A stretch of DNA of 64,000 bases. It comes from Thermoanaerobaculia bacterium (lineage in GTDB: Bacteria; Acidobacteriota; Thermoanaerobaculia; UBA5066). The notes under the pieces are model-generated. The model saw only the letters and a list, made by a program, of their open reading frames with translations. It ran no database searches and was not told where the DNA came from. Every line of letters starts with the position of its first letter. Within the stretch, counting starts at the first letter, position 1. This document shows positions 10,102 through 53,940 of this stretch, piece after piece. The DNA lies in the NCBI GenBank assembly GCA_022071945.1, contig JAJVIN010000025.1:5500-69499 (forward strand), in the 5' to 3' direction. The translations under genes and the position numbers were made by a program.

Positions 10102-10452
10102 GTGCCGCCAGCCTCTCCCCGTCTCGTCTTCTCGTCCGATTCCGGCCGGGTCTGCCCTGACTGCGGCCGGCCGAAAGACGTTTGTTCCTGCAAGGCCAAG
10201 ATAGAGGCTCAAGTCCCGGGTAAGATCACCGCGAAACTCAGGCTCGAGAAGAAGGGCCGCGGAGGGAAGACTGTCACGGTGATCGATGGCCTGCCCAACA
10301 ACGAAGCCTTTCTCGAGGACCTGGCCAAGGAGTTGAAAAAGGCTTGCGGTTCGGGCGGCGCCGTCAAGGACGGAACCGTCGAGATCCAGGGCGATCACCG
10401 CGAGAAGCTGAGAGCGCTTCTGTCCTCGAAGGGCTACACGGTCAAGGGGTAG
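10102..10452 (+). CDS. yciH: SUI1/YciH translation initiation factor family protein
   Basis: RLVFSSDSGRVCPDC..C.C; KKGRGGKTVTVIDGL; LKKACGSGGAVKDGTVEIQGDHR. Start codon uncertain (10072 or 10102). Confidence 0.92.
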   Translation: MPPASPRLVFSSDSGRVCPDCGRPKDVCSCKAKIEAQVPGKITAKLRLEKKGRGGKTVTVIDGLPNNEAFLEDLAKELKKACGSGGAVKDGTVEIQGDHREKLRALLSSKGYTVKG

Positions 10453-10459
10453 CCCCCTC

Positions 10460-11233: not shown

Positions 11234-11661
11234 CAGTTGATTCCATGTCTCATTTGCGCCGAGGAGTGGGTGGCGGCAGCGACACCACCTCGCCACGAGA
11301 ATGGAGGCACGGGCGGGCCCTGACTGGTAAGGCCGCGTCAGCGGCTCGCCTTCACAACCTCGGTCTTCGGTGCGATGATGTCCTTTGCGCCTGATGAGAT
11401 GGAGAGCGGGATCGCGCCGATTCGTGTGTGTCTTGATGAGCGCGACACGCGACTGTCTTGCACCAAGAAGGCTCAACCCCGCGCGTAATCGCTTACACGG
11501 AAAATGCAACGGCACCGCTCAGCCTCATCGCGCCCTCAACCCTTGCAGGTAGTTGTTTGACAGTGACCAAAATGCGGTATGCCGGAGGTCCAGGCTCCGG
11601 CGTCCCGCGGGAACCCTTGTTTGGACGATGACCGAGATACCCAAGAGAAGGAGAACCGAAG

Positions 11662-41803: not shown

Positions 41804-41938
41804 CACCCCCCATCCCCCTCCGCGCCCTCGCGGACCGGCACCTGTGAAGGACATCACAACTCCATTCTAGCGAGGGGCATGCCGGAGGGCGGGAAAAGCA
41901 GCGGTCTTCTGCCCACAACGGCGTTTAGAATCCGGCAA

Positions 41939-44467
41939 ATGCTGCCGGGAAACGGTGAAGCGTCACACCCGCGACTCATCGCGGGCCGGTTCCGCCTCGA
42001 GAACCGTCTCGGGCAAGGCGGTTTCGGGGCGGTCTACCGCGCCTCGGACGAGCTGTTGAGACGGCCCGTCGCCGTCAAGATGCTCCCGATTCCCGAATCC
42101 TGGCAGGAAGAGGACTATCAGCGCTTCCTCAGAGAAGCGAGGATTCTGGCCTCCCTCGAGCACCCCCACATCATCCGGATCTACGACGCGGGACAGACGG
42201 AAGCGGGTCCCTTCATCGTCATGCAGCTCGCAGCCGGTCCCTCCCTCTCCGCGCTCTGCAAGAACGGCCCCCTGGCTTTTTCGGTCGTCGCGGAGGTTCT
42301 GAAGCAGATTCTCGACGCTCTCACCTTCGCGCACTCCCGGGGCGTCATCCACCGCGACATCAAGCCCGGAAACGTCTTGTCAGAGAACGACGGACACTTC
42401 TACCTCGCCGATTTCGGCCTCTCCTCTGCCCGGGACCTTTCCTCCATCGTCCCTTCCGGAGGGGCGGCCGGGACGCTCAACTACATGGCTCCCGAGTGTC
42501 TTCGAGGAGAGGTCTCCTCGGCGTCGGACATCTACTCCCTGGGCGTCCTCGCCCACCGGATCCTCCTCGGCCGGGAACGCTTTACGCCCTCGCCCGGCCA
42601 GCTGCCGGGCGTGACGCCAGCCGGCTTCGGATCAGCAGCCGCGGGGCTGCCGGCGCCGTTCGCCGGCCTCCTGACGTCGATGATGGCGCCTTTCCCCTCC
42701 GATCGTCCCACCCCGGAGGAAGCACTCCGTGTCCTCCGATCGCTCCCGGTCCACGAGCAGGCCGGAGGCGAACTCGAGGAGAAGACCGTATCCCTGGGCG
42801 GCCCCCTCTTCCCCTCTTCCCAGCCGCGTTCCGCCGCCCCCAGCTCTTTCCTCGATCTCGGCGAGTCGGTCTTCGCGGTGGAACGGCTGGCGGAGGAACT
42901 GGAGTCCTGCCTGTCTTCCGGCGGCCCGCTGGACGCCGCCTTTCTCGAGAAGTTCGCACGGCTCCAGGATGGCTGCCAGAAGATCACGGCCAGCCTCGGG
43001 CAGCGAGAGGGCGACTCCGGCCGGCCTCCGGTTGAGGATCCCGCCTTCACCCAGGCGATTGTTCTCGAGACGAGCCGTTCCGTCCTGGATCTCCTCGAGC
43101 GCCTCACCGCCGCGTTCCAGAGGCACACGGACTCGCTCTCCGAGACCGGTGTCGCAGGTGGCATCCTGGCCCTCCAGCTCCACCGATTGCTGATTCCGAG
43201 GCTTTCCCGCAAGGGCCGCGACGCGCAGCCCGCGACGGAAAGCGAGGAGTTCTTCTTCGACGAAGGACCGGAGCAGGACGAGGAAGCCCGCCACGTGGAC
43301 GACCTTCGCTCGGGGCTGCTCTCCCCCGACGAGCTGACCCGGATCGACACGCTCCTCTCACTATCGGCAAAAGGGGCGGAGGCGCTCTTTCAGGTTCTCG
43401 GTTCGGCTCCGGCACAGGATCGTGCGCGGCTCCTGGCCTCGCTCTGGAGCCGGTGCGACATCCTGCTGATGCGGATGCGGACGGCAAGCCGTGCCTTTCT
43501 CGAGAGCATTCCATTCCTGACGCAGGACCCCGAATCCCGGAAGAAGTGGAGGCTTCTCTACGCGCTCTTCAAGAGGACGCCTTCGGGCGACTTCTGGGAC
43601 ATCGACGCCGTGAGGTCCACGGTCGAGGACCTTGACGGGGCGGACCGCCGGGTCTTCTCGCGGTGCTTCCTTCTTCACCCGCACCCGGGGTTCAGGACCT
43701 ACGCGATCGAGGCGCTCGATCCAGGAGACGTCTGGGACTTCGTCCTCGAGGACTCGACCCCTCTCCCACGCCTTCTCGAACTCTGGAATGCCTTCGGGAA
43801 GCGGCTGCCGACGGGGTTCCGGAAGATCTTCTTCGTCTGCCTCAAGCACAGGATCGCCAGCCCCAGGTCCCCCGTGGATGCCCGCGCGGCATTCGAGTTC
43901 CTCGAGTCGTTCTACCGGCTCCCCTTCTTTCACGAGGACAGCTACTTCAGGATGCTGGAACAGGTGCAAGAGGAGCTCCAGAAGGCAGCCTCGGGGCTCG
44001 GAGTGGAAAGAGACCTCGACTCGGAATACTCGACGCTGATGAAGGAGTTCTTCTCGGCGCCGCGGAGCCGGGACGTTCCCGTCGAGGACTGGGCCACCGT
44101 CCCCCTTCCGATCCAGCGCCGGATCGCGCGGAAGGGGCACTTCCTCCGTCACTTCGTCTGCCATCCGGTCGATCCGATCGCCCTGGAGTGCCTGCCCCAC
44201 CTCTTGAGGCTCGAGAGCGTGGCCCCCTACATCTCGATCTTCTCGATCAACTCCCGGGTCCTTCTCGAGCTCGCGCGCGACAGGCGGCTCTTCCAGTGGG
44301 AGGAGGCGCGATTCGCCCTCGTCTCCAACCCGAAGACGCCGTCCTCCGTCGTGGTCCAGTACATCTCGTTTCTGAGGCGCGACAACCTGAAGAAGCTCTC
44401 GGAATCACGCGAGAGCAACCAGTTCGCCCGCCAGTTCGCGGCCAAGCTCCTGGCCCGGCCAGGGTAG
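41939..44467 (+). CDS. Hanks-type Ser/Thr kinase with a long unassigned helical C-terminal region
   Basis: GQGGFGAV; VAVK; HRDIKPGN; DFG; YMAPE; SDIYSLG. No obvious TM helix. Confidence 0.88.
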   Translation: MLPGNGEASHPRLIAGRFRLENRLGQGGFGAVYRASDELLRRPVAVKMLPIPESWQEEDYQRFLREARILASLEHPHIIRIYDAGQTEAGPFIVMQLAAGPSLSALCKNGPLAFSVVAEVLKQILDALTFAHSRGVIHRDIKPGNVLSENDGHFYLADFGLSSARDLSSIVPSGGAAGTLNYMAPECLRGEVSSASDIYSLGVLAHRILLGRERFTPSPGQLPGVTPAGFGSAAAGLPAPFAGLLTSMMAPFPSDRPTPEEALRVLRSLPVHEQAGGELEEKTVSLGGPLFPSSQPRSAAPSSFLDLGESVFAVERLAEELESCLSSGGPLDAAFLEKFARLQDGCQKITASLGQREGDSGRPPVEDPAFTQAIVLETSRSVLDLLERLTAAFQRHTDSLSETGVAGGILALQLHRLLIPRLSRKGRDAQPATESEEFFFDEGPEQDEEARHVDDLRSGLLSPDELTRIDTLLSLSAKGAEALFQVLGSAPAQDRARLLASLWSRCDILLMRMRTASRAFLESIPFLTQDPESRKKWRLLYALFKRTPSGDFWDIDAVRSTVEDLDGADRRVFSRCFLLHPHPGFRTYAIEALDPGDVWDFVLEDSTPLPRLLELWNAFGKRLPTGFRKIFFVCLKHRIASPRSPVDARAAFEFLESFYRLPFFHEDSYFRMLEQVQEELQKAASGLGVERDLDSEYSTLMKEFFSAPRSRDVPVEDWATVPLPIQRRIARKGHFLRHFVCHPVDPIALECLPHLLRLESVAPYISIFSINSRVLLELARDRRLFQWEEARFALVSNPKTPSSVVVQYISFLRRDNLKKLSESRESNQFARQFAAKLLARPG

Positions 44468-44661
44468 CGGGCCCTCTCGAGAGCCGCACCTCCAGCCCGA
44501 AGGCCCTCTCGCGCAGACGCCGGGCCCCCCGAAAGCCGCCGCTCTCGAGGGTGGCCTGCCCGGCCACGCGGGAGAGCCGGGCCGGGTCGATTCCGACGGG
44601 GGTTTTCCCAAGGAACTCGAGGACCTCCGGCACCTACCTCCCGGCGAGGCCCGGACTCACG

Positions 44662-46359
44662 TCACAAGACCCGGGCGGTCAGGACGGTCTGATCGTCGTA
44701 CTGGGGAACTCCGCGGGTGAAGTCCGAAACGGCGTCGAAGATCTTCTGGGTGATCTCGACCGGCGGAGCCGCTCCGGCTTCGCGGACGCAAGCGATCAGG
44801 CGCTCCATCCCGAACTCCTCGTCGGTCGCGGTGTGCGCCTCGGTGATGCCGTCGGAGTAGAAAACGACGAGGTCGCCGCGCAAGAGCCGGACGCTCTCCT
44901 CGCGGTGCGTGACCTTCGGGAGCATCCCGATCGGCACGCCCGAGCTCGGCAGGAGCTCGAAGCCGTCGTCTCTCCAGAGAATTCCGGGGTTGTGCCCCGC
45001 GTTGACATACCGGAGGGTCCGGCTTTCGGGATCGAACATGCCGATCACGACCGTCACGAACTTCCGGGTGGAGCTGAACTGGATCAGGTGCTGGTTGATT
45101 CGCGAAACGAGCGCGGTCAAGGAGATTTCCGGGGTGTCGAGGAGCAGGTGGAGACAGGCGTGGAGCGTCGACACGAGAAGGGCGGCCGGCACCCCTTTTC
45201 CCGCCACGTCGGCCACGCAGAAGGCCGACTGCCCGTTGGGCAGGAAAAAGACGTCGTAGTAGTCGCCGCCGACCTGCCGCGTCGGCCGGTTGCCCCCGGA
45301 AAGCTCCAGACCCGAGAGGGGAGGCAGGTACTCGGGCAGAATCGCCCTCTGGATGGAGGCCGCGAGCTCGATCTCGCGCTCCATCCGCTCCTTCTCGACC
45401 GCCTGCCGGTGCAGGCGGGCGTTCTCCAGGGCGATCGCCGCCTGGTTCCCGAAGAGGGAGAGCGTGCGCGAGTCGGTCTCGCCGAAATCGTCCACGCCTC
45501 CCTGCCGGTTCTCCTTGTCGGCCACGACGAGAACCCCGATCAACTGGTTGTCGGACTCGATCGGAACCGAGAGGAGCTTCTCCGCCGGTGCCGAGGCGAA
45601 GGGCTCCGGACGTTCCTCGGGCTGGTTCGCCACGACGATCTCGCCGGGCAGAAGAAAGGCCTTTTCGGGAGTGATGAGAGGGCTGCCGAAGTGCTTCTGC
45701 AGGACGTGCTCCTCGAGCCGCCCTGGTTCCCAGACGATGAGCGTCCCGCTGCGAGCGTTCAGGAGCGAGATCGACTTGAGCAAGATGTCATCCGCGAGGG
45801 ACTCGAGGTCGAGCGTGCCGGCGATGGAGAGGCCGACGTCGTAGAGGCTCTCGAGCTCCCAGACGCGGTACTTCAGCTCGAAATCGGTCTGTCTCACCCT
45901 CTCCGCGCTTCTCACCCAGGCGAGGATCGAGGCGGCGTGGGCGACGACGGAGGCAAAGCCGGCGGGGTCCTCGGGTTCCGACTCCATGATCGAAAGCGCC
46001 AGGGTCTCGTCCCCCGCGATGAGGGGCACGACGCAGGCGTTTTCGCGGGCGCGGTCGGAACCGAAGAGCTGGGCTCCGACGTCGAGCGGCAAGACGTCCG
46101 CGTCGAGCTTTCCATCCGACAGAGGACGCGTGAGCGCGCGGAGAACCTCCGGCCGCGGGGCAAAACCCGCGGCCAGGGCCCGGGGAGACCGGCCCGACCC
46201 CAGGATGACACCCCGGGCCGCTCCCGCTCCCTCCAGCAGGGCCTTGAGAACCTCTCGAAGAAGAGAGTCGCCGCTCCCCTGCGGATCGATCGAGGCGAGG
46301 TGTCCGTGGGCCCCGATGATGTCCGCTCTCATGGCGGGGACTTCATTCCGCTTCGCCAC
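44662..46359 (-). CDS. GAF-PP2C (SpoIIE/RsbU-like) phosphatase
   Basis: VGGDYYD; ADVAGKG; NAGH; YSDGITE; DDQT; a GAF domain and coiled coil precede the catalytic domain. Alternative start at 46332. Confidence 0.92.
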   Translation of the reverse strand: MAKRNEVPAMRADIIGAHGHLASIDPQGSGDSLLREVLKALLEGAGAARGVILGSGRSPRALAAGFAPRPEVLRALTRPLSDGKLDADVLPLDVGAQLFGSDRARENACVVPLIAGDETLALSIMESEPEDPAGFASVVAHAASILAWVRSAERVRQTDFELKYRVWELESLYDVGLSIAGTLDLESLADDILLKSISLLNARSGTLIVWEPGRLEEHVLQKHFGSPLITPEKAFLLPGEIVVANQPEERPEPFASAPAEKLLSVPIESDNQLIGVLVVADKENRQGGVDDFGETDSRTLSLFGNQAAIALENARLHRQAVEKERMEREIELAASIQRAILPEYLPPLSGLELSGGNRPTRQVGGDYYDVFFLPNGQSAFCVADVAGKGVPAALLVSTLHACLHLLLDTPEISLTALVSRINQHLIQFSSTRKFVTVVIGMFDPESRTLRYVNAGHNPGILWRDDGFELLPSSGVPIGMLPKVTHREESVRLLRGDLVVFYSDGITEAHTATDEEFGMERLIACVREAGAAPPVEITQKIFDAVSDFTRGVPQYDDQTVLTARVL

Positions 46360-46705
46360 GCAACCAGATCAGCGCCGGCTCGGAGGACGGGAACAACCTC
46401 GCGTACTGGGCCAGGCCCATGATGTGGAAGGTCTTCTCGATCGTCGGCGTCAGGTGGCAGAAGGCGAGCCGCCCCTCCTTCTCGAGGACCTTCTCGAGGA
46501 TGTCGAGGAGGATGGAGATCCCGATGGAATTGACGATCTTGGTCTTCTCGAGATCGAGCAGCAGCCGGGTGACCCCCTCGTCCATGAGCGTGTAGGCGCG
46601 GCGGGCAATCTCCTCGCCACCCGTGTTGTTGATGTAGCCGTCGGTCTTGAGCACCGCGATCGATGGACCTGGCCTCTCGACAGAGACCTTGAGCGTCTCA
46701 CTCAT
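46343..46705 (-). CDS. STAS-domain anti-sigma antagonist (RsbV/SpoIIAA-like)
   Basis: LLDL....VNSIGI with the phosphoacceptor Ser; F.IMGL; 120 aa. Confidence 0.92.
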   Translation of the reverse strand: MSETLKVSVERPGPSIAVLKTDGYINNTGGEEIARRAYTLMDEGVTRLLLDLEKTKIVNSIGISILLDILEKVLEKEGRLAFCHLTPTIEKTFHIMGLAQYARLFPSSEPALIWLRGEAE

Positions 46706-46709
46706 TGCG

Positions 46710-47144
46710 TCACCGGTACTTCCTCATGAGGATCCTGGTTCCACGGTCGTTGCTTTCAATCTTCACGTCGTCCATCAGGCTCTCGATGATCTTCAGGCCC
46801 CAGCCCCGCTTGCGGTCGGATTTCAGCTTGGCCGCCAGATCCGGCAGCGGGATCTTCGCCGGATCGAATCCTCGACCTCCGTCGAGGACCGCGATCTGCA
46901 GGAAAAGGCGCCCGTCGTCCTCGTCGGCGACGAAATCCAATTCCACCCGCCGGTCCGGGGTGTGACTGTGCTCGAAAGCATTGATGCAGGCCTCGACAAC
47001 GGCCATCTTCATCTCGTCGATCTTGTCGCGTCCCATGTCGAGCCACTCGCCCAGGGCTGTCACCTGGGCGGTCGCCGCGATCTCCATGTCTGGAGCGACT
47101 GGAATCGAGAGATGCAGTTCTCTCCGCTCGAACCCTTCCATCAA
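46710..47144 (-). CDS. GHKL anti-sigma factor/Ser kinase (RsbW-like)
   Basis: AVVEACINAFEH; D.GRGFD; RGWGL.II..LMD. Confidence 0.92.
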   Translation of the reverse strand: MMEGFERRELHLSIPVAPDMEIAATAQVTALGEWLDMGRDKIDEMKMAVVEACINAFEHSHTPDRRVELDFVADEDDGRLFLQIAVLDGGRGFDPAKIPLPDLAAKLKSDRKRGWGLKIIESLMDDVKIESNDRGTRILMRKYR

Positions 47145-47158
47145 AAGACGGACCCCGC

Positions 47159-47365
47159 TCAGAAAGTCAGTAAAGCCCGGAATACCCTGAAGACAACCGG
47201 GGGGATCTTACCTGACGCGGAGAGCGCGCCCAAAAAGAGCGCCTGAGAGGAAACCACGGCGAGGAGACCCCACGGGGCAGCCTCGAGGACAGCGGAGTCC
47301 CGCCAGGACCTCACGCTCCCTTCAGCAATGTCGGTTCCGTGTGCCACGCTCGCGGACGCTCTCAT
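47159..47365 (-). CDS. Putative 68-aa small membrane protein
   Basis: GGGAGG 6 nt before the ATG at 47365; hydrophobic stretch WGLLAVVSSQALFLGAL; lies just downstream of a sigma-54 motif and stops 14 nt before the rsbW-like gene. Confidence 0.6.
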   Translation of the reverse strand: MRASASVAHGTDIAEGSVRSWRDSAVLEAAPWGLLAVVSSQALFLGALSASGKIPPVVFRVFRALLTF

Positions 47366-47388
47366 CTCGTTCCTCCCACGCCTGTGTC

Positions 47389-47405
47389 CGCAAGTCTCAG
47401 GCCAA
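47389..47405 (-). promoter_or_regulatory. Sigma-54 -24/-12 promoter
   Basis: Minus strand TTGGCCTGAGACTTGCG matches TGGC-N7-TTGC (GG-N10-GC). Confidence 0.8.
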
Positions 47406-47432
47406 CGGGGGAATCCCCCACAAAATTGATCA

Positions 47433-47445
47433 CAAACACTTGATA
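47433..47445 (-). promoter_or_regulatory. IHF-binding site
   Basis: Minus strand TATCAAGTGTTTG is an exact match to WATCAANNNNTTR, in a conspicuously AT-rich patch between the enhancer-like sites and the promoter. Confidence 0.72.
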
Positions 47446-47495
47446 TGGAATAGCTTAGTGTGATGAGGACCCGGAAGGACACGGAAGCCACGCAG

Positions 47496-47612
47496 TGTGA
47501 CAATTCGCCACATTTCCCGGCGAGCCGAGAAAGGAGGCCGGATGAAGCCCTCTCCCCATGCGTTCCCCGGGCACAAGCGCGGCAGAATGCCACACTGTGT
47601 CTCTATGTCACG
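47496..47612. promoter_or_regulatory. Three candidate upstream activator sequences (TGTGRC-N5-GYCACA-like)
   Basis: TGTGAC-aattc-GCCACA (47496-47512), CGCGGC-agaat-GCCACA (47578-47594), TGTGTC-tctat-GTCACG (47596-47612). Confidence 0.62.
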
Positions 47613-49096
47613 TTCTTTCGGTAGAGGGTCCGGCGATTGATGCCCAGCATCCGGGCCGCGCGGCTCTTGTTCCCCCCGACCGAGACGAGCACCTGGCGGA
47701 TGTGCTCCCTCTCGATCGAGGCCAGGTCGTGCGCGGCCAGCCCCGCCGCCGCCACGGGCGCCAGACTGAACTGCAGGTCCCCGGCATCGATCAGGTCCCC
47801 CGCAACGAGTGCCGCCGATCCCTCCAGGAGGTTCTCGAGCTCCCGGACGTTGCCCGGAAAGGAGTAGCGCAGAAGCTCGGCGACGGCCGAACGGGTCAAC
47901 GAGAGGTGCCGCCCTTCCCTTTCCGCGATGCGGGCCAAGAAGTGAGCGGCCAGCCTCGGAATGTCTTCCTTGCGCTCCCGCAGGGGAGGCAGCTGGATCT
48001 CGACGACTCGAAGGCGGAAGAAGAGGTCCTCTCGAAAGCGCCTCCTGCGGATCTCCTCCATCAGGTCGGCGTGCGTGGCCGCCACGACCCGGACGTCGAC
48101 AGGAACTGGCTGCCTGCCTCCCAGCCGCTCCACGACCCTTTCTTGCAGGACCCGCAGGAGCTTGGCCTGTATGGGAAGCGGCGTGTCGCCGATCTCGTCG
48201 AGGAAGATCGTCCCCCCCGAGGCGAGCTCGAACTTTCCGAGCCGCTGCTCCACTCCCGTGGCGACCCCCCGTTCAATGCCGAACAGCTCGCTCTCGAGGA
48301 GGCTTTCCGGGACGGCGGCGCAGTTGATGGCGATGAAGGGTCCCTCGCGGCGCGGGGATCCCGCGTGGAGGAGCTTGGCGGCGAGCTCCTTGCCCGTGCC
48401 GCTCTCGCCCCGTATCAGGACGCTGGCTCGCGAGGCCGCCGCCCGTCCGATCAGCTCCTTGGCCCGGCGCATCGGGGCCGAGTCGCCGACGAGCAGGTCT
48501 CCGGCCCGAAGCGACCCCTTGAGGGCGCGGTTCTCTTCCCTGAGCCGATCCACGTCCTCGGCGAGGGCCCGAATCTGCCTGAGCGCGCCCAGTGCCGGGG
48601 AAACGAGGGCCGCGACAGAGGCCAGAAACCTCAGGTCCTCGACCTCGAAGGAGGCGGACCCACCCCCTCGCGACTCCTTGTCGAAGACCGATAGGACGCC
48701 CAGGACTTCACCCGAAGGGGCCCGGAGCGGGATCCCCGCTGCACTCCTGACCTCGACGTTGAGGAGCCGGGTTTCCCCTCGCCGGACCGGGTCGTTCGTC
48801 CGGCAGACATCCAGGACAAACGGGTCGGACAGGACGGAGACGATCGCGGGAGGCGGGTGGAGGCCGACGGCGGAAACGGACCCGGACTGCCCCCGGTCCT
48901 CGAAGACCGCGCAGAACCCGCCGCCGGCGTCGAGGACCGGTACGGTCCTCGAGAGAGCTTCTTCTGCCAGGACGGTCTCGTCGCGGGCGTTGGCCACCGA
49001 CCTGCTGATGTCGTACAGGGCCTCGAGCCTGAGGACTTTCTTCTTGAGGTCGAACGCCGAGACCGACGCGTTGGAGACGGTCCGCGGATCGCTCAT
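47603..49096 (-). CDS. GAF-AAA+-Fis HTH sigma-54 enhancer-binding protein
   Basis: GESGTGKE; INCAA; ESELFG; FLDEIG; QAKLLRVLQ; FREDLFFRL; PGNVREL; C-terminal NKSRAARMLGI.R.TLYRK. Confidence 0.95.
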   Translation of the reverse strand: MSDPRTVSNASVSAFDLKKKVLRLEALYDISRSVANARDETVLAEEALSRTVPVLDAGGGFCAVFEDRGQSGSVSAVGLHPPPAIVSVLSDPFVLDVCRTNDPVRRGETRLLNVEVRSAAGIPLRAPSGEVLGVLSVFDKESRGGGSASFEVEDLRFLASVAALVSPALGALRQIRALAEDVDRLREENRALKGSLRAGDLLVGDSAPMRRAKELIGRAAASRASVLIRGESGTGKELAAKLLHAGSPRREGPFIAINCAAVPESLLESELFGIERGVATGVEQRLGKFELASGGTIFLDEIGDTPLPIQAKLLRVLQERVVERLGGRQPVPVDVRVVAATHADLMEEIRRRRFREDLFFRLRVVEIQLPPLRERKEDIPRLAAHFLARIAEREGRHLSLTRSAVAELLRYSFPGNVRELENLLEGSAALVAGDLIDAGDLQFSLAPVAAAGLAAHDLASIEREHIRQVLVSVGGNKSRAARMLGINRRTLYRKNVT

Positions 49097-50514
49097 CCGT
49101 TCCTGGGTCTGGAGGGGGCGCGCGCCGTTTGTGCCTCGGCCTGGAGCTTCTTCTCGAGATCGACGGCCGCCTTGAAATTCGGGTCGATCGCCGTCACGGT
49201 CGCGAGAAGCGCCTGGGCATCGTCGGGGTAGCCGGCGTCCAGGAACTGGGAGGCGAGGTCGACCCTGAGAACCTTGTGGGAGGGGAAGTAACCCGAGGCG
49301 TTAAGGCTGAGGGGAGCACCCGGCTCACCCAGCTTCTTGACCAGGGCGCGCGCGGGCTCGGGCTCGTGCCGCTGCAGGGCCTGCCGGGCCTCGATGAACT
49401 GCCGGATGAGGGCGAGAGCCTCCTGGTCGTGCTTGGGCAAGTCCCGCCAGCGGCCGAGCTCGGCCAGGATCTCCAGGCCCGCCGGGTACTGACCCTGCCG
49501 GGCCAGTATCGAGGCCCTCATCGTCTTCATTCCGAAGTCGATGCGCGGGCGGTACTTCTCTCCAACTTCCGGCAGCCGCGTGGACAGGGTATCGAGCCGC
49601 TGCATGGCGGCGGTGAGATCCCCCCCGGCGATCCGGGCGCCGATGGCGGCGAAGGTGAGCTCGAACTGGGCGAGCGGCGTATCCATGACCTCGGCCGCCC
49701 TCTCGTAGTGGGCCACGGCCGCGGCATAGTCACCCCGTCCCATGGCGACGACACCCAGGTGTCCGACAAGGGGAGGGAAGTCTCCCTTGATCGCGAGGGC
49801 CTTCTTCAGGTTCTCCTCCGCCTCGTCGTACCGGCCGACCTGGCAGAGAAGCTCCGCTAAGGAGTCATACGGATTCGCCTGTTCGGGGGCGAGGAACCGG
49901 TAGCGGGTGAAGTAGTCCTCGGCCCGCGCGTAGTCGCCCTGCTCCATCGCGTAGTAGCCCAGGAAGTTGTAGGCCAGGGCGTTGTTCGGGTTGCGGGAGA
50001 TCAGGATCTCGAAATCGGCCATCGCCTTGGCGATGTCGCCGGACTTCCGCAGGAGGAGGGCTCGCTCCCGGTAGCCATCCGGGTCGTTCGGGAACTCCTC
50101 GATGTAGCGATCCACGGCCTTGCGGACGAGGTCGCGATCCTTCTTGATGAAACGGGCCTCGAAGATCTCGAGGGAGAGCTTCTCTCTCTTGGTCAGGCCT
50201 TCCCGGCACTGCGAGATCTTCCGGACGAGGGACTCGGCCCGGGCCGGTTCGCGTTCCCACATCAGGTTGGCGAGCCGCACCGTCGCCATGACGAAGTAGG
50301 GATCGCGGGAGAGGGCTTCCGCGTAGGCCGTCATCGCCTCGCGGTGGTAGAGCTTTTCCTCGTTTTCGAGCCCGAGCCGGTAGGAACGCAAGGCGTCGCG
50401 CGAGGTCGTGGTCACCTCGCGTTGGGAGCTGACGAGGAAAGCGGCCGCGGAGCCCGCCACGAGCACGATGGCCACTCCCGCGAGCCAGGTCTTCCAGTTT
50501 CCGGGGAACTTCAT
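49093..50514 (-). CDS. Membrane-anchored TPR protein
   Basis: N-terminal hydrophobic helix; VTT.S..A...Y..G; TPR repeats (AYNFLGY, NPYDSLAE); ATGA overlap with the activator gene. Confidence 0.85.
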   Translation of the reverse strand: MKFPGNWKTWLAGVAIVLVAGSAAAFLVSSQREVTTTSRDALRSYRLGLENEEKLYHREAMTAYAEALSRDPYFVMATVRLANLMWEREPARAESLVRKISQCREGLTKREKLSLEIFEARFIKKDRDLVRKAVDRYIEEFPNDPDGYRERALLLRKSGDIAKAMADFEILISRNPNNALAYNFLGYYAMEQGDYARAEDYFTRYRFLAPEQANPYDSLAELLCQVGRYDEAEENLKKALAIKGDFPPLVGHLGVVAMGRGDYAAAVAHYERAAEVMDTPLAQFELTFAAIGARIAGGDLTAAMQRLDTLSTRLPEVGEKYRPRIDFGMKTMRASILARQGQYPAGLEILAELGRWRDLPKHDQEALALIRQFIEARQALQRHEPEPARALVKKLGEPGAPLSLNASGYFPSHKVLRVDLASQFLDAGYPDDAQALLATVTAIDPNFKAAVDLEKKLQAEAQTARAPSRPRNG

Positions 50515-50613
50515 GGCACATGCTCCCAGGGAACGGCCCGCGGAAGGCGGGCAGCCCCTCCTTTCATGTTACGTCCAGGTCTGGACTCGGGTTTCGGTCT
50601 CTTCATGGGCGTC

Positions 50614-53202
50614 TCAGGCGTTTCCGACCCGCATCAGGATGAAGGTCTGGTCGTCGTACTGGTCGGCGGCTCCCGTGAAGGCCCGGATCTCTTCCAGGAG
50701 AGCGTGCGAGAGGTCCGGCAGCGGCAGGCCGGCATGTCTCACGAGCGACTCCTTGAGCCTGTCATCCCCGTAGAAGTCGCCCCCGATGGACATCGCCTCG
50801 CTCAACCCGTCCGTGTAGAAGAGAAGGAGGTCGCCGCGCTTGAGGTAGATCACCCTCGAGTCGTAGTCGGTTTCGCGGAACGCGCCGAGAGGGAGCCGGA
50901 CCTCGGGCACCGGAATCTCGACCGCCTCCCTCGCCCCCTTTCGCAGGAGCAAGGGAACCGGCTGACCGCCGATCGAGTACTGCATCGAGAGGCTCTCGGG
51001 GTCGATCAGGAAGTACCCCAGGGAGACGAACATCCGCCTCTTGATCTCGTAGATCCGGCGGTTCGCCTCGCGGAAGACGACGGCAGGATCCGGGTTGGCC
51101 GTCGCCTTGGCATAGACGATCTCCTTGGCGGCGACCATGAGGAAGGACGCCGGGATCGACTTTCCCGAGACATCGCCGAGAACCAGTCCCGAACGCGACG
51201 TCCCGTCGAGCTCGAGGAAGTCGAAGAAGTCGCCGCCCACGACCTTGGCGGGCCGGCTGACGCCGAAAAACTCCATGCCCGGCAAACTCGGCATCTCCCT
51301 GGGGAAGAGGCTCGTCTGGATGTCCCGGGCAATCTCCAGATCACGCTGGACCTCGGCCTGTCTCGTCAGCTCGGCATGGAGGTTGGCCGCCTCGAGCCCG
51401 AGCGCCCCTTGATTGGCGATCATCGCCAGGTGGTCGAGATCTTCCCGCGTCCACTCCTCCTCGGACTTCTTCTCGCCGGCCGCCAAAAGGCCGAGGAGCC
51501 GCCCCCGCGTCGCCACGGGAACGAGCACCCGGATCCCGCGCTCCGAGATCTCGTCCAGAAACCCCCTCGAGACGGCGTCCACGTTGAGACGTTCGACCTC
51601 GGCCACGCGCAGGGGCCCCGCCTTCTCGATGACGATGCGGGCCAGGGAGCTCCCCAGGGGCAGCACGCCGCTCGCATCGCTCTCGGGCTCGCTCAGGGCG
51701 AGGGATCCATCCTCGGGCCTCGGCGTGAAGAGCTCCAGGCGCTCGAGCTTGAGGAGTTCGGCCGTCTTCTTGGTCAGGAGCTCGTGGAGCTTCTCGCGCT
51801 CGAGCTGGGAAACGACCTCGCGGCTCACGTCGAGGATCGCCCTCTGGAAGTCGGTCCGGTCCCGGAAGAAAACGCGGTCCACGGCGCTCTGGAGACGGCG
51901 CCTCAGGGGGTCGATGATCACGACGATGAGGAGACCGAAAACGAACGCGAACAGCGGTGAGGAGAAGAACGGCGAGGAGGTCGCCAGGCGGCTCCCCGTC
52001 ACGATGGCCAGCGCGTAGATCCCCGTCACAACCGCCGTGAGAAAGCCGTAGACGATCGACTTCCTCACGAGGAACTTCACGTCGAACAGACGGAAGCGGA
52101 CGATCGCGTAGGCAAAGGTCACCGGGATCAGCGCCATCGGAACGACGCCCCACGCCAGGTATCTCTCGTTCCGGAAAAACGACGGGAAGGAAACCGCGAA
52201 GACGACGAAGGGGATCGTGCCCGAGAGCGTCCCGATTAGGAGGAAGAGGGTCTGGCGCCTCGCCTTGCGGTCCTCCGCGGTCCACCAGCTGTGGAAGAGC
52301 GCCAGGATCCCGAGCACGAGATAGTCCGCGAGCAGGATCCAGTTCAGAACCGGCGCCCCGTAGATCAGCCGGACCCCCTTGCCGGACCGCATGGCGGGCA
52401 TCTGGAGCATGTAGACGGCCGGCGGAAGCGTGTAGAGGACCGTCAGGAGCGCCGGAGAGGCATTGAGGAAATTCTGGAGCTTCAGGAGAGCCTGCCCGGA
52501 ACCCTCGGAGACCTTCTCGGGATCCAGGAGCCGGAAGACTTTCTTTTTCGGGAAGAGCAGGAAGAAGTGGAGAAAGACCGCCGGCAGCAGGAAGAGCGCG
52601 AGCGTCCCGGCGAGCTGGACGAAGTAGTCGATCCAGTAGTAGCTGAGAGGCCGGAGCCGGCAGACGAAAAAGAGCATGAAGAGGACGGAGAGGAGGTAGA
52701 AGACCGCGACCGCCGGGTCGTCCGGACCCTTCGAGAGGACGAAGCTCCCGAGGGCAAAGAAGGCGGCCCCGAGAAGGACGAAGGAGAAGTACGAAAGGGA
52801 GCCCGCCCGGTAGGGCGACATGCGCACCGAGGTCTCGAAGAGATGGTCTCCCCTCCGGACGAGGTACCTCACCTCCTGCCCCACCTCGTGGCGCAGGAGC
52901 TCGGGCGGAGCGTCGGCCGGCCCCCTCAACATCCGGTGCCCGATCCCGAGGATCACGTCGCCGGGCCGGATCCCGGCCGTGTCGGCGGCCCCGCCCGGAA
53001 CGAGGTCCCGAACCGCGATTCCGCCCCGGGAGTAGGGGTCGGGAACGACGCCGTCATACGGCTTCGGCAAGAACATGTCCACGACGGACATGCCCGCGAT
53101 CAGGCACCCCACGACCCCGATCACGAGGACGGCCCGCCTCTTGGCGGCCAACTGGGCACGCGTCAACCGGCCTTCTTCTAGGATCGCGGGCAGCTTCGGC
53201 AC
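50614..53202 (-). CDS. Membrane sensor phosphatase: PDZ, multi-TM, GAF, PP2C (SpoIIE)
   Basis: PGGAADTAGIRPGDVI PDZ; about 8-9 TM helices with YAIVR.RLFD; GAF; VGGDFFD, GDVSGK, YTDG..E and DDQT. Start approximate. Confidence 0.9.
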   Translation of the reverse strand: MPKLPAILEEGRLTRAQLAAKRRAVLVIGVVGCLIAGMSVVDMFLPKPYDGVVPDPYSRGGIAVRDLVPGGAADTAGIRPGDVILGIGHRMLRGPADAPPELLRHEVGQEVRYLVRRGDHLFETSVRMSPYRAGSLSYFSFVLLGAAFFALGSFVLSKGPDDPAVAVFYLLSVLFMLFFVCRLRPLSYYWIDYFVQLAGTLALFLLPAVFLHFFLLFPKKKVFRLLDPEKVSEGSGQALLKLQNFLNASPALLTVLYTLPPAVYMLQMPAMRSGKGVRLIYGAPVLNWILLADYLVLGILALFHSWWTAEDRKARRQTLFLLIGTLSGTIPFVVFAVSFPSFFRNERYLAWGVVPMALIPVTFAYAIVRFRLFDVKFLVRKSIVYGFLTAVVTGIYALAIVTGSRLATSSPFFSSPLFAFVFGLLIVVIIDPLRRRLQSAVDRVFFRDRTDFQRAILDVSREVVSQLEREKLHELLTKKTAELLKLERLELFTPRPEDGSLALSEPESDASGVLPLGSSLARIVIEKAGPLRVAEVERLNVDAVSRGFLDEISERGIRVLVPVATRGRLLGLLAAGEKKSEEEWTREDLDHLAMIANQGALGLEAANLHAELTRQAEVQRDLEIARDIQTSLFPREMPSLPGMEFFGVSRPAKVVGGDFFDFLELDGTSRSGLVLGDVSGKSIPASFLMVAAKEIVYAKATANPDPAVVFREANRRIYEIKRRMFVSLGYFLIDPESLSMQYSIGGQPVPLLLRKGAREAVEIPVPEVRLPLGAFRETDYDSRVIYLKRGDLLLFYTDGLSEAMSIGGDFYGDDRLKESLVRHAGLPLPDLSHALLEEIRAFTGAADQYDDQTFILMRVGNA

Positions 53203-53271
53203 TCCTCTCGTTTCGACAGGTTCAGTATACGAACGCCATGCCGGAAGTTCCCTGTGCGAGAATCCTTCGTC

Positions 53272-53940
53272 ATGAGTCAGCTCCGACCGGTGCAACACCG
53301 GGGGCTTTTCATTACATTCGAGGGGATCGAGGGCTCGGGAAAATCAACTCAAATGGCTCGGACGGCCGAAATCCTCAGAAAGAGGGGGTTGCCCGTCGTC
53401 AGCACGCGTGAGCCAGGCGGCACGCCGCTCGGCCTCCAGCTGCGGCGGCTCCTGCTCGAGGTGGACGGTGTGATGGACCCCCGCACCGAGCTCCTACTGA
53501 TGGTGGCGGACCGCCGGCAACACCTCACCGAGAGCATCGAACCGGCCCTCTCCCGCGGCCAGATCGTGCTGTGCGACCGGTACTCCGATGCTTCCCGCGC
53601 TTACCAGGGGGGCGGCCGCAAGCTCGGCGAGGACCTCGTCGACATCCTTCACGAGCACCTCTGCCCCCTCTCGCCAGACCGGACCATCCTCCTGGACTGT
53701 CCGCCAGACGTCGCGCTCGCCCGGGTCCTGGCCCGAAACGCCGGCGACCGGGACCGGATGGAGCGGGAGGACCTGGAGTTCCACGAACGGGTCCGTGCGA
53801 GCTACAAGAAGCTCGCACGCAAGGAATCGAGCCGCTTTCTCGTCATCGACGGGACACAGGATCCGGACAGCATCTCGAGCGAGATCCTCTCGGAGATCGA
53901 GAACCTGATCCCGGTCTTCCAGAAACGCTCTCAGAAGTGA
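53272..53940 (+). CDS. tmk: Thymidylate kinase
   Basis: FITFEGIEGSGKSTQ; REPGG; CDRY..AS.AYQG. Confidence 0.96.
   Translation: MSQLRPVQHRGLFITFEGIEGSGKSTQMARTAEILRKRGLPVVSTREPGGTPLGLQLRRLLLEVDGVMDPRTELLLMVADRRQHLTESIEPALSRGQIVLCDRYSDASRAYQGGGRKLGEDLVDILHEHLCPLSPDRTILLDCPPDVALARVLARNAGDRDRMEREDLEFHERVRASYKKLARKESSRFLVIDGTQDPDSISSEILSEIENLIPVFQKRSQK

What the first reader, a model, noticed from the sequence alone, without database searches (positions are those of the whole stretch)
44662..53202. Sigma-54 enhancer circuit wired to a partner-switching module that lacks a sigma factor
Seen: seven co-oriented genes (membrane PDZ-GAF-PP2C, TPR, GAF-AAA+ activator, small ORF, RsbW-like, STAS, GAF-PP2C) with an internal sigma-54 promoter and no sigma factor gene anywhere in the window. 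Established: RsbU/V/W modules normally control a sigma-70-family factor (SigB/SigF), and enhancer-binding proteins activate sigma-54. Inference: an envelope signal (PDZ/TPR) feeds two phosphatases acting on one STAS protein, and the output may be the activator itself, making a feedback loop because the activator would transcribe the switch genes. I do not know of a described system with this layout.
Basis: partly seen in the sequence, partly recalled or inferred. Interest (0 to 1): 0.82.

Follow-up and report, generated by a model that had tools for sequence, protein, structure and literature searches.

The report
Sigma-54-driven partner switch without sigma
A gene cassette kept across a whole class of uncultured sludge and soil bacteria puts a phosphorylation-controlled protein switch under a dedicated sigma-54 activator, yet the genome has no sigma factor of the kind such switches normally control, so what the switch acts on is still open.

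Summary
On the minus strand lie PDZ-membrane-GAF-PP2C, TPR, a GAF-AAA+-HTH activator, a small ORF (real, but 68 aa rather than 144), an RsbW-like kinase, a STAS protein and a GAF-PP2C. A sigma-54 promoter (47390-47404) with three upstream palindromes sits between the activator and the small ORF. The genome (Acidobacteriota, Thermoanaerobaculia MAG) has RpoN but nothing reaching the SigB/F cut-off. All six Pfam-typed genes kept their order in 20 of 20 loci of the same order. The core (activator, promoter, small ORF, RsbW, STAS, GAF-PP2C) was kept in 18 of 20 loci from other families of the class, and the promoter in 41 of 41 loci. A motif scan found no other intergenic promoter-plus-palindrome site in the genome, so the activator looks dedicated to the switch operon. 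Related RsbW-STAS-PP2C modules outside the class lack both activator and promoter. That argues the activator is an added upstream control, not the switch's output. Verdict: a real, strongly conserved new variant of a known kind. The output is unknown.

The parts
50614..53298 (-). PP2C_A: membrane sensor phosphatase. Order of parts: TM1, PDZ (residues 91-158, probably periplasmic), about 8 hydrophobic segments, GAF, SpoIIE-type PP2C.
   Evidence: Pfam hits; hydropathy. Orthologue present in 20 of 20 same-order loci but only 2 of 20 loci from other families of the class.
49093..50514 (-). TPR protein with one N-terminal hydrophobic anchor. Its stop overlaps the activator's start by 4 nt.
   Evidence: Present in 20 of 20 same-order loci. 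No tblastn match in 20 loci of other families, although small TPR proteins lie upstream of the activator in L143 and L153, and of the promoter region in L142.
47603..49096 (-). Enhancer-binding protein: GAF, AAA+ (Walker A GESGTGKE, Walker B-like DEIGD), lid, HTH_8. The sigma-54 contact loop reads GVATGV instead of GAFTGA.
   Evidence: The loop is invariant in 39 of 39 orthologues. An orthologue of the GAF region is in 144 of 151 class genomes.
47578..47612 (-). Distal pair of enhancer-like palindromes. CGTGACATAGAGACACA overlaps the activator's stop codon; TGTGGCATTCTGCCGCG follows. They start 208 and 190 nt upstream of the TGG of the promoter.
   Evidence: Comparable sites sit at about -180 to -215 in most same-order loci.
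47496..47512 (-). Proximal enhancer palindrome TGTGGCGAATTGTCACA. It matches TGTGNC-N5-GNCACA exactly and starts 108 nt upstream of the promoter.
   Evidence: Palindromes with 2 or fewer mismatches: 1.56 per locus in the -230 to -70 window, against 0.029 per 160 nt elsewhere in the same loci.
47390..47404 (-). Sigma-54 promoter TGGCCTGAGACTTGC (GG-N10-GC). The expected start of transcription is near 47378.
   Evidence: Conserved in 41 of 41 loci. RNA-library contigs of two studies stop at 47368 and 47371, which is only a weak hint.
47159..47365 (-). Small ORF, 68 aa: variable N-terminus, moderately hydrophobic helix, a G/D/N-x-(I/V/L)-P turn, and a conserved C-terminal tail (RALLTF). It is the first gene behind the promoter.
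   Evidence: found in 41 of 41 loci at 47-90 aa. No Pfam or NCBIfam hit and no Atlas hit. Its hydrophobic stretch stays below the 1.6 threshold for a membrane helix.
46710..47144 (-). RsbW/SpoIIAB-like GHKL serine kinase. Invariant N-box (EAC.N..E), G1 (D.G.GF) and G2 (KRG.G).
   Evidence: The profile matches solved RsbW (6m36, 1.6e-18) and SpoIIAB (1th8, 1.5e-14). An orthologue is in 138 of 151 class genomes at E<=1e-20, and in 5 of 5 re-tested misses.
46343..46705 (-). STAS-only protein. Its invariant IVNSIGISIL holds Ser60, which aligns with the first Ser of DSSG in SpoIIAA. It is the most conserved protein of the cassette.
   Evidence: Across the class its identity to the window protein is 52-66%, against 39-54% for RsbW, 44-48% for the activator and 33-48% for PP2C_B.
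44662..46359 (-). PP2C_B: cytoplasmic GAF plus SpoIIE-type PP2C, overlapping the STAS stop by 17 nt. Its GAF is the reciprocal closest paralogue of the activator's GAF in this genome.
   Evidence: Present in 20 of 20 same-order loci and 19 of 20 class loci.

Best explanation
The cluster is two transcription units.

Unit 1 (PP2C_A, TPR, activator) supplies a one-component, GAF-gated enhancer-binding protein. On its cue this protein binds three palindromic enhancers that begin at its own stop codon. Together with sigma-54 RNA polymerase it fires the promoter at 47390-47404.

Unit 2 is the only intergenic promoter-plus-enhancer site of this kind found in the genome. It encodes a small hydrophobic protein, an RsbW-like serine kinase, a STAS protein and a GAF-PP2C phosphatase.

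Inside the module the kinase phosphorylates STAS on Ser60. PP2C_B removes the phosphate. In this order of bacteria the membrane PDZ-PP2C_A does so too, helped by the periplasmic TPR protein as an envelope input. The GAF of PP2C_B is the activator's closest paralogue, so one cue may both induce the module and activate its phosphatase.

The output is not a SigB/F-type sigma factor. Most likely unphosphorylated STAS, or the kinase it frees, acts on a target encoded outside the cassette, as in the sigma-less switches SypE/SypA, BtrUVW and HmpUVW. The activator is an upstream transcriptional control added in Thermoanaerobaculia.

Shown here: domain content, motifs, synteny, promoter and enhancer conservation, and absence of a SigB/F-type sigma factor. 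Inferred: every binding and phosphorylation step, the cue, and the output.
For: - Domains and motifs.
- Synteny: 20 of 20 same-order loci carry all six Pfam-typed genes in the same order. In one of them (L041) both phosphatase genes are broken into several frames. In another (L033) PP2C_A runs off the fetched stretch.
- Across other families of the class, of 20 loci each: the activator is directly upstream in 18, STAS is present in 20 and PP2C_B in 19.
- The promoter is conserved in 41 of 41 loci and the small ORF in 41 of 41.
- Enhancer palindromes are about 54-fold enriched upstream of the promoter and sit at fixed distances.
- Co-occurrence in 151 class genomes: RsbW 138, activator GAF region 144. 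There are 7 with neither and 0 with RsbW alone. Five of the 6 'activator only' genomes do have RsbW when searched with a profile, and in 3 of them it lies beside the activator hit.
- In the two loci where the activator is not adjacent (L139, L142) the promoter is still there, and an activator GAF homologue lies elsewhere in those genomes.
- Unrelated genes are inserted between the activator and the enhancers in L033 and L034. This fits action in trans.
- Dedication: of 717 promoter-like sites in the genome, only this one is intergenic with 2 or more palindromes. The other candidates lie inside ORFs.
- RpoN is present.
- A GVATGV loop was reported in DVUA0100, for which sigma-54 promoters were predicted (PMC4641369, passages).
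- No SigB/F-type sigma factor. The 295-aa sigma factor on C2 scores best as RpoD/RpoS-like and sits beside hspR-dnaK.
- STAS is the most conserved protein of the cassette. That fits a protein with several partners.
- Out-of-class modules have no activator.
- RNA-library contigs cover all the genes. In two studies they stop 7-10 nt inside the expected transcription start. This is only a weak hint.
Against: - No binding, phosphorylation or transcription step was measured.
- The output is unidentified, so 'acts on a target outside the cassette' is a statement by exclusion.
- The GVATGV loop lacks the phenylalanine of GAFTGA, which from recalled mutational work on PspF is needed to engage sigma-54. 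The only support for function of this variant is predicted regulons, here and in PMC4641369.
- The dedication claim rests on one genome and on my own palindrome pattern. Targets with diverged enhancers would be missed. The pattern already fails in 13 of 41 orthologous loci at 2 or fewer mismatches.
- A sigma-70-family partner is not excluded. There are 30 region-4 matches in the genome, including the RpoS/RpoH-like factor on C2.
- The small ORF's hydrophobic helix does not reach a standard threshold for a membrane helix.
- The RNA libraries may contain DNA, and no DNA run was laid beside them.
Confidence: 0.5

Rival explanations
1. Feedback, or anti-activator, model. The RsbW-like protein sequesters the GAF activator, or sigma-54 itself. 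Unphosphorylated STAS releases it. The activator therefore takes the place that SigB holds in the Bacillus sigB operon, and the internal promoter makes the loop autoregulated.
For: - The layout mirrors the sigB operon as I recall it: upstream sensors and a phosphatase, an internal promoter that depends on the regulated factor, then kinase, antagonist and a trailing phosphatase.
- The activator and RsbW are adjacent in 38 of 40 relatives' loci and co-occur class-wide.
- The activator appears to have no other target, as recalled for PspF, whose inhibitor PspA is encoded in its only operon.
- From recall, a GHKL-domain protein (NifL) inhibits a GAF-bearing activator (NifA).
Against: - Related RsbW-STAS-PP2C modules in other Acidobacteriota lineages have no adjacent activator (0 of 9). 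Eight of the 9 have no sigma-54-type promoter within 700 nt; the ninth has one weak site at -606. So the kinase had a role before the activator arrived.
- A loop whose only product is its own regulators needs an effector. The small ORF would have to be that effector.
- No direct evidence of contact exists.
Confidence: 0.17
2. Canonical model with a distant partner. RsbW is a true anti-sigma factor for a sigma-70-family factor encoded elsewhere, for example the 295-aa RpoS/RpoH-like factor on C2 or an ECF-type factor. The sigma-54 activator only sets how much of the switch is made.
For: - RsbW matches solved RsbW and SpoIIAB and the NCBIfam anti-sigma B/F models, though below their cut-offs.
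- The genome holds 30 Sigma70_r4 matches, including a three-region 295-aa factor.
- A search listing (abstract start, PMC6482189) reports a partner switch acting on RpoS in Pseudomonas aeruginosa.
Against: - No match reaches the SigB/F/G cut-off.
- No sigma gene lies in the window.
- tblastn with the nine window proteins, which include no sigma factor, and the Pfam scans of selected flanking ORFs turned up no sigma gene in the fetched loci. The loci were not searched with a sigma model.
- The second RsbW-STAS pair of the genome (C35) also has no sigma gene among the neighbours scanned.
Confidence: 0.15
3. The activator and the switch are neighbours without a functional link, and the promoter-like site is a chance match.
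For: The bare promoter pattern is not above chance in the window: 3 found against 2.0 expected.
Against: - The promoter is conserved in 41 of 41 loci, down to about 40% RsbW identity.
- The enhancers are enriched about 54-fold.
- The genes are adjacent in 38 of 40 loci and co-occur class-wide.
Confidence: 0.02

Closest known systems
Vibrio fischeri syp locus: SypG (sigma-54 activator), SypE (RsbW-like kinase plus PP2C) and SypA (STAS)
   Same: A sigma-54-dependent activator directly turns on a locus that encodes a STAS protein. That protein is controlled by serine phosphorylation and dephosphorylation. There is no sigma factor, unphosphorylated STAS is the active form, and its target is unknown (PMC4517449 abstract and passages; PMC8256260 section 6).
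   Different: SypG is a response regulator in a phosphorelay; here the activator is a GAF one-component protein with a GVATGV loop. SypE fuses the kinase, a receiver domain and the phosphatase; here they are separate genes, with two GAF-PP2Cs. The syp locus is an 18-gene polysaccharide locus; here the operon holds only the switch and a small ORF. No polysaccharide gene is syntenic.
Bacillus subtilis sigB operon (RsbU/V/W, SigB, RsbX), from recall
   Same: An RsbW-type kinase, a STAS antagonist with the conserved serine, PP2C input phosphatases, and an internal promoter that drives kinase, antagonist and a trailing phosphatase.
   Different: There is no sigB-type gene in the locus or the genome. 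The internal promoter is of the sigma-54 type with enhancers, not a SigB promoter.
Sigma-less partner switches BtrUVW (Bordetella), RbaVW (Rhodobacter) and HmpUVW (Nostoc)
   Same: PP2C, RsbW-like and STAS trios whose output is not an identified sigma factor (PMC8256260 section 6).
   Different: In the text I read, none is described with a dedicated sigma-54 activator and promoter. None has the small ORF or the paired GAF sensors.
DVUA0100 of Desulfovibrio vulgaris (an enhancer-binding protein with a GVATGV loop)
   Same: The same three substitutions in the GAFTGA loop. The authors predicted sigma-54 promoters in its regulon (PMC4641369, passages).
   Different: It was assigned to type III secretion genes. 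No partner-switch genes are mentioned: the terms 'anti-sigma' and 'STAS' occur 0 times in that paper.
PspF/PspA and NifA/NifL anti-activator pairs, from recall
   Same: An activator dedicated to one operon that encodes its own inhibitor (Psp). A GHKL-domain protein that inhibits a GAF-bearing activator (NifL-NifA).
   Different: There is no PspA or NifL homology here. The activator's NifA score is below cut-off (361.8 against 528.85). These pairs are analogies for the rival model only.

Membership tests
RsbW/SpoIIAB anti-sigma serine kinases | GHKL fold with N-box, G1 and G2 ATP-binding motifs | tested here: met
   HATPase_c_2 4.7e-23. E51, N55, D88, G90, G92, K112, R113, G114 and G116 are invariant in 22 orthologues. 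The profile hits solved RsbW 6m36 at 1.6e-18. The motif names are recalled.
RsbW/SpoIIAB anti-sigma serine kinases | Reaches the curated equivalog score for RsbW or SpoIIAB | tested here: not met
   57.5 against 145 (PRK04069) and 54.8 against 135 (spIIAB).
RsbW/SpoIIAB anti-sigma serine kinases | A cognate SigB/SigF-type sigma factor, usually encoded beside it | tested here: not met
   No region-4 match on contig C28. No genome match reaches the SigBFG cut-off; the best is 134.1 against 234.35.
RsbW/SpoIIAB anti-sigma serine kinases | Phosphorylates its STAS partner and binds a target protein | not testable with these tools
   This needs a kinase assay and binding assays.
STAS anti-sigma-factor antagonists (SpoIIAA/RsbV) | Single STAS domain with the phosphorylatable serine | tested here: met
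   STAS 6.5e-11. Invariant Ser60 aligns with the first Ser of DSSG in SpoIIAA 1th8_B. That this serine is the phosphorylated one is recalled.
STAS anti-sigma-factor antagonists (SpoIIAA/RsbV) | Reaches the curated TIGR00377 score | tested here: not met
   39.1 against 53.45.
SpoIIE/RsbU-type PP2C phosphatases | SpoIIE (PF07228) domain with the metal-binding aspartate motifs | tested here: met
   8.3e-40 for PP2C_A and 1.8e-45 for PP2C_B. GGD..D, DV.GK, (S/T)DG and DDQT are visible in both translations. The motif meaning is recalled.
Bacterial enhancer-binding proteins (sigma-54 activators) | Sigma54_activat AAA+ domain with Walker motifs and a C-terminal HTH | tested here: met
   1.5e-63 and HTH_8 9.1e-15. 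GESGTGKE and DEIGD are conserved.
Bacterial enhancer-binding proteins (sigma-54 activators) | Canonical GAFTGA loop that contacts sigma-54 | tested here: not met
   GVATGV in 39 of 39 orthologues. The same variant is recorded in DVUA0100 (PMC4641369). In this genome, 3 of the 21 loops my pattern could read are GxATGV and 18 are GAFTGA-like. Nine of the 30 hits were not read.
Bacterial enhancer-binding proteins (sigma-54 activators) | rpoN in the genome, and a GG-N10-GC promoter with upstream enhancers as the target | tested here: met
   RpoN at 6.5e-66. The promoter and palindromes are conserved.
Syp-type circuit (SypG/SypE/SypA) | The activator is a response regulator, the kinase and phosphatase are fused with a receiver domain in one protein, and the genes sit in a polysaccharide locus | tested here: not met
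   The activator has GAF and no receiver domain. Kinase and phosphatases are separate genes. No glycosyltransferase is in the operon or in conserved synteny. It works like Syp but is not a member.
PEP-CTERM regulators PrsK/PrsR/PrsT (considered because of weak NCBIfam hits) | Reaches the curated scores of TIGR02916, TIGR02915 and TIGR02917 | tested here: not met
   42.6 against 300, 334 against 502.6, and 63 against 312.2.

The most novel reading that the evidence does not exclude
The RsbW-like kinase is an anti-activator. It sequesters the GVATGV-type enhancer-binding protein, or sigma-54 itself, and unphosphorylated STAS releases it. That would be a sigB-operon-like, autoregulated partner switch in which an enhancer-binding protein takes the place of the sigma factor. 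It would also be the first partner switch known to gate sigma-54 transcription. The small ORF would be the effector or membrane anchor.
Probability: 0.15. Interest if true: 0.85.

Novelty: new variant of a known kind. Interest (0 to 1): 0.55.

Why it matters
Partner switches are best understood as controllers of SigB/SigF-type sigma factors. What the growing set of sigma-less switches acts on is an open question: the targets of SypA, BtrV, RbaV and HmpV are unknown (PMC8256260 section 6).

This cassette offers a compact case, conserved across a whole class, with several useful properties:
- The only promoter the activator seems to serve is that of the switch.
- The activator and one phosphatase carry sister GAF sensors.
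- A small conserved ORF arrived together with the promoter.

That gives clear, testable alternatives for both the output and the cue. It also adds 39 natural examples of the little-known GVATGV variant of the sigma-54 contact loop, each placed next to a conserved sigma-54 promoter. This makes the variant's function directly testable.

The bearers are uncultured Thermoanaerobaculia, for which DNA and RNA sequencing runs from sludge, wastewater and bioreactor samples were listed.

Tried and rejected
1. Co-folding of the activator (alignment A3) with RsbW (alignment A4) gave 'no answer', score 0.00. It counts neither for nor against binding.

2. My first promoter guess was TGGCAC...TTGC, inside what turned out to be the small ORF (near 47340-47360). 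It has 12 bases between the blocks, so the spacing is wrong. A search for TGGCAC-N5-TTGC with 1 mismatch missed the true site, because that site reads TGGCCT.

3. In one search my script picked wrong promoter matches for L042 and L043. One search gives the right ones, at -240 and -373.

4. The other promoter-plus-palindrome candidates in the genome (C16:124812, C17:89187, and C3:222525 and 222940) all lie inside ORFs and have G+C-rich spacers. I rejected them as chance.

5. The terminator scan gave 7 sites against 5.1 expected. The sigma-70 promoter scan gave 0. Rfam gave nothing in 44000-54000. Nothing can be drawn from these.

6. The Atlas search with the small ORF gave no usable hit.

7. 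In the RNA contigs, the bin 47510-47800 is without cover in 3 of 4 runs. A hole proves nothing. The depth peak at 48092-48382 is the conserved AAA+ core and comes with loose ends, so it probably includes other organisms' genes. No DNA run was laid.

8. The PrsK/PrsR/PrsT reading was rejected on scores.

9. I asked whether the GxATGV loop marks switch-linked activators. It does not: the other two in this genome are FHA-domain activators beside unrelated genes.

10. I looked for a recurrent neighbour of the out-of-class modules that could be the target. None recurred: DUF4412 twice, a Ser/Thr kinase, TPR, SPOR and GGDEF proteins.

11. The 80 named MAG loci (L055-L134) were used only for their titles, which give the taxon. 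None was analysed further.

12. Supplementary files of papers were not opened. The supplements of PMC4641369 may hold the DVUA0100 sites.

Statements about the sigB operon, PspF/PspA, NifL/NifA and the role of the GAFTGA phenylalanine are recalled, not read here. PMC3610818, PMC10120452 and PMC6482189 were seen only as search listings with the start of the abstract.

No paper in the library joined 'Thermoanaerobaculia' with sigma-54, partner-switching or anti-sigma among the 15 papers listed of 177. Searches found no paper describing a partner switch under a GAF-type sigma-54 activator. Only the Syp papers came close.

Full report
**What is there.** Between 44662 and 53298 the minus strand carries seven ORFs in a row.
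- Pfam gives, in order of transcription:
  - PP2C_A (50614-53298): PDZ, GAF and a SpoIIE-type PP2C;
  - a TPR protein (49093-50514);
  - an enhancer-binding protein (47603-49096): GAF, Sigma54_activat at 1.5e-63, and HTH_8;
  - an RsbW-like GHKL protein (46710-47144): HATPase_c_2 at 4.7e-23;
  - a STAS protein (46343-46705);
  - PP2C_B (44662-46359): GAF and PP2C.
- A hydropathy scan puts one hydrophobic segment before the PDZ of PP2C_A and eight after it, and one at the N-terminus of the TPR protein. The PDZ and TPR parts are therefore probably periplasmic. This is an inference.
- The TPR stop overlaps the activator's start by 4 nt, and STAS overlaps PP2C_B by 17 nt.
- A 458-nt gap separates the activator from RsbW.

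**The gap.**
- I aligned the gap from the window and 18 same-order relatives. L033 and L034, which carry insertions, were left out. The alignment shows three conserved things.
  1. Palindromes of the type TGTGNC-N5-GNCACA. The first overlaps the activator's stop codon. In the window they lie at 47596-47612, 47578-47594 and 47496-47512.
  2. An invariant TGGC-N7-TTGC (GG-N10-GC) block, at 47390-47404 in the window.
  3. A short ORF with a ribosome-binding site, at 47159-47365 (68 aa). Its C-terminal half (hydrophobic helix, SGK(I/M)P turn, RALLTF tail) is conserved.
- The bare promoter pattern is not above chance in the window: 3 matches against 2.0 expected. The evidence is its conservation.

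**Whose genome.** The window is part of a 6.17-Mb, 69-contig assembly that is 96% complete. Relatives found by a pattern scan are all titled as MAGs of Acidobacteriota, Thermoanaerobaculia or 'Holophagales' (288 relatives found, the best 80 listed). Listed sequencing runs that hold most of the stretch are labelled bioreactor, sludge or wastewater metagenomes.

**No sigma factor.**
- None of the 30 Sigma70_r4 matches lies on the window's contig.
- No match reaches the SigB/F/G cut-off. The best two are a 598-aa RpoD-like frame and a 306-aa frame.
- The latter, annotated here as a 295-aa ORF, has regions 2, 3 and 4. It scores best with RpoD/RpoS models and sits beside hspR and dnaK.
- RpoN is present once.
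- The genome has two short stand-alone RsbW-like frames, this one and one on C35 next to a STAS gene. It also has one PP2C-RsbW fusion, 9 STAS matches and 20 SpoIIE matches.

**Conservation.**
- An RsbW orthologue was found in 40 of 40 relatives from three families of the same order. One match was weak, in a genome 51% complete.
- In 20 of 20 loci fetched from that order the arrangement is the same. A divergent tmk comes first, then PP2C_A, TPR, the activator, a gap of 381-587 nt, RsbW, STAS and PP2C_B. Three caveats apply:
  - In L033 and L034 the gap is 4.9 and 1.5 kb. It holds a malate-synthase-like gene and a radical-SAM-like gene, placed between the activator and the palindromes.
  - In L041 both phosphatase genes fall into several frames.
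  - In L033 PP2C_A runs off the fetched stretch.
- I fetched 20 more loci from nine other families of the class.
  - The activator lies directly upstream of RsbW in 18.
  - STAS is present in 20 and PP2C_B in 19.
  - PP2C_A appears in only 2 (family f11), and TPR in none by tblastn.
  - Upstream of the activator there are housekeeping genes (uvrA, smpB) or small TPR proteins.
- A promoter of the form TGG[CT]-N7-[TC]TGC lies 179-352 nt upstream of the RsbW start in 20 of those 20. This includes the two loci without an adjacent activator.
- The small ORF is recognisable in 41 of 41 loci.
- Palindromes with 2 or fewer mismatches occur 1.56 times per locus in the -230 to -70 window, against 0.029 per 160 nt elsewhere in the same loci. 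They are present in 28 of 41 loci. In the distant families the consensus drifts towards TGGGNCA...TGNCCCA.

**Co-occurrence.**
- In a sample of 151 class genomes, RsbW is found in 138 at E<=1e-20.
- The activator's N-terminal 200 residues are found in 144 at E<=1e-8.
- Seven genomes have neither, and none has RsbW alone.
- Five of the six 'activator only' genomes were searched again with the RsbW profile. All five have RsbW, and in three it lies within 2 kb of the activator hit. The sixth, G134, was not re-tested.
- In G090 and G056, the genomes of the two unlinked loci, an activator GAF homologue lies on another contig.

**Outside the class.**
- In 251 genomes of the phylum, 47 have an RsbW orthologue at E<=1e-18. 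Of these, 25 lie outside the class.
- I fetched nine such loci.
  - RsbW is followed by STAS in 8. In the ninth (L157), STAS lies 3.7 kb away.
  - A PP2C_B-like gene is present in 6.
  - In three loci (L160, L163, L165) a large PP2C sits between STAS and PP2C_B.
  - None of the 9 has an activator hit.
  - Only one has a promoter-like site, and that is 606 nt upstream.
- In families f44 and f51 the RsbW domain is the C-terminus of a frame of 725-796 aa.
- I conclude that the kinase-STAS-phosphatase module is older than its sigma-54 control. The activator, promoter and small ORF were added in Thermoanaerobaculia. PDZ-PP2C_A and TPR were placed in front of the activator in this order. These are inferences.

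**Is the activator dedicated?**
- In the window's genome I scanned every TGG[CT]-N7-TTGC site for a palindrome with 1 or fewer mismatches lying 40-300 nt upstream. That gave 2 candidates.
- I also scanned all 717 TGG[CT]-N7-[TC]TGC sites for two or more palindromes with 2 or fewer mismatches. That gave 4 candidates.
- Apart from this locus, every candidate lies inside an ORF.
- So no second intergenic target was found with this pattern. This is one genome and my own pattern, so diverged sites would be missed.

**The activator's loop.**
- The sigma-54 contact loop reads GVATGV in 39 of 39 orthologues.
- In this genome, tblastn with the AAA+ domain gives 30 hits. My pattern read the loop in 21 of them: 18 are GAFTGA, GSFTGA or GAYTGA, and 3 are G(V/S/T)ATGV. 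The other 9 were not inspected.
- The two other GxATGV proteins are FHA-domain activators in unrelated contexts.
- The same GVATGV was noted in DVUA0100 of Desulfovibrio vulgaris. The authors argued from predicted sigma-54 promoters that it remains functional (PMC4641369, passages).
- The present family adds a conserved sigma-54 promoter next to each such activator.

**The switch proteins.**
- RsbW keeps the ATP-binding motifs in all 22 aligned orthologues. Its profile matches solved RsbW and SpoIIAB.
- STAS has an invariant IVNSIGISIL. Its Ser60 aligns with the first serine of DSSG in SpoIIAA.
- Both phosphatases show the aspartate motifs of the family.
- Neither RsbW nor STAS reaches the curated NCBIfam scores. 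They are relatives of the canonical proteins, not equivalogs.
- STAS is the most conserved protein of the cassette: 52-66% identity across the class, against 33-54% for the others.

**Paired sensors.** The activator's GAF region and the GAF of PP2C_B share 29% identity over 164 residues, including the helix that leads into the domain. In the whole genome each is the other's best non-self tblastn hit, at 2.5e-8 and 1.6e-8. One cue may therefore both induce the operon and activate its phosphatase, or the two GAF domains may pair. Both are inferences.

**Expression.**
- Contigs from four RNA libraries of three studies lie on the stretch. One library's contig runs from 45072 to 48268.
- In two other studies, contigs end at 47368 (46181-47368) and 47371 (46833-47371). 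That is 7-10 nt inside the expected start near 47378, and no loose end is listed at those places.
No DNA run was laid, and RNA libraries can hold DNA.

**What it works like.**
- The nearest described circuit is the syp locus of Vibrio fischeri. There the sigma-54-dependent regulator SypG directly activates the locus. Its first gene, sypA, encodes a STAS protein that SypE phosphorylates on Ser56 and dephosphorylates. SypA is active when unphosphorylated, and its target is unknown (PMC4517449 abstract and passages; PMC8256260 section 6).
- Other sigma-less switches (BtrUVW, RbaVW, HmpUVW) are reviewed in the same section.
- The present cassette differs in several ways. It has a GAF one-component activator with a GVATGV loop, separate kinase and phosphatase genes, two GAF-PP2Cs, a small conserved ORF and no effector genes in the operon. 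It also has an activator that seems to serve this promoter only.
- It is therefore a new variant of a known kind, not a member of the Syp family.

- That RsbW holds the activator remains possible. The layout does recall the sigB operon, and the recalled Psp and NifL-NifA systems.
- The out-of-class modules without an activator weigh against it.
- The single co-fold allowed gave no verdict (see Tried and rejected).
- I put this idea at about 0.15-0.17, and a distant sigma-70-family partner at about 0.15.
- I put the 'STAS or kinase acts on an unlinked non-sigma target' model at about 0.5.

**Limits.**
- All steps of mechanism are inferred from sequence.
- The tallies include up to three unpublished genomes (G025, G030, G155).
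- Supplementary files were not read.

Noticed in passing
own genome C1:180975-182804 and C22:37755-39674 (L051:6976-8805, L052:6756-8675): Two further enhancer-binding proteins carry the variant loop (GSATGV, GTATGV). Both have an N-terminal FHA domain. One sits beside circularly permuted ATP-grasp and Alpha-E genes, the other beside an OmpW-family gene.
   Followed up: partly
own genome C35:12493-13330 (L053:5494-6331): A second stand-alone RsbW-STAS pair lies between a 1065-aa MCP-signal/SBP_bac_5 protein and an Hvo_1808-family surface protein. No sigma gene was found among the neighbours scanned.
   Followed up: partly
own genome C2:198751-199692: One 548-aa frame joins a SpoIIE phosphatase domain to a HATPase_c_2 (RsbW-like) domain. 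This resembles the SypE-type fusion without the receiver domain. It was not examined further.
   Followed up: no
window 41918-44467 (+): An 849-aa Ser/Thr protein kinase lies convergent to PP2C_B. It is not at this position in the 20 same-order loci, where about 1.5 kb separates PP2C_B from the isoaspartate methyltransferase gene. A kinase of this type sits directly upstream of RsbW in one out-of-class locus (L161).
   Followed up: partly
L033:4436-9292 and L034:7514-9000: In two relatives, unrelated genes (malate-synthase-like on the opposite strand; radical-SAM-like) are inserted between the activator's stop and the enhancer palindromes.
   Followed up: yes
L041 (G021:C13) 2999-5554 and 10149-11496: Both phosphatase genes match in three pieces in different frames. 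The cause could be assembly indels or decay; I did not decide which.
   Followed up: no
L157:7710-9890, and frames of 725-796 aa in families f44 and f51: Outside the class the RsbW-like domain forms the C-terminus of a large protein. The N-terminal 600 residues gave only a weak AAA_16 hit.
   Followed up: partly
window 50614-53298, residues 320-646: The membrane and GAF part of PP2C_A weakly resembles the sensor part of the PEP-CTERM histidine kinase PrsK (TIGR02916, 42.6 bits against a cut-off of 300). The TPR protein weakly resembles PrsT. Both are far below membership.
   Followed up: partly
window 55638-57431 (-): A 597-aa ORF with coding-like composition has no Pfam hit. It lies next to a GT2/GT1 double glycosyltransferase (57430-59607).
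   Followed up: no
window 48092-48382: RNA-contig depth jumps (172 and 90 in two runs) over the conserved AAA+ core, and many loose ends appear there. Contigs of other organisms' activator genes probably lie on it as well.
   Followed up: no
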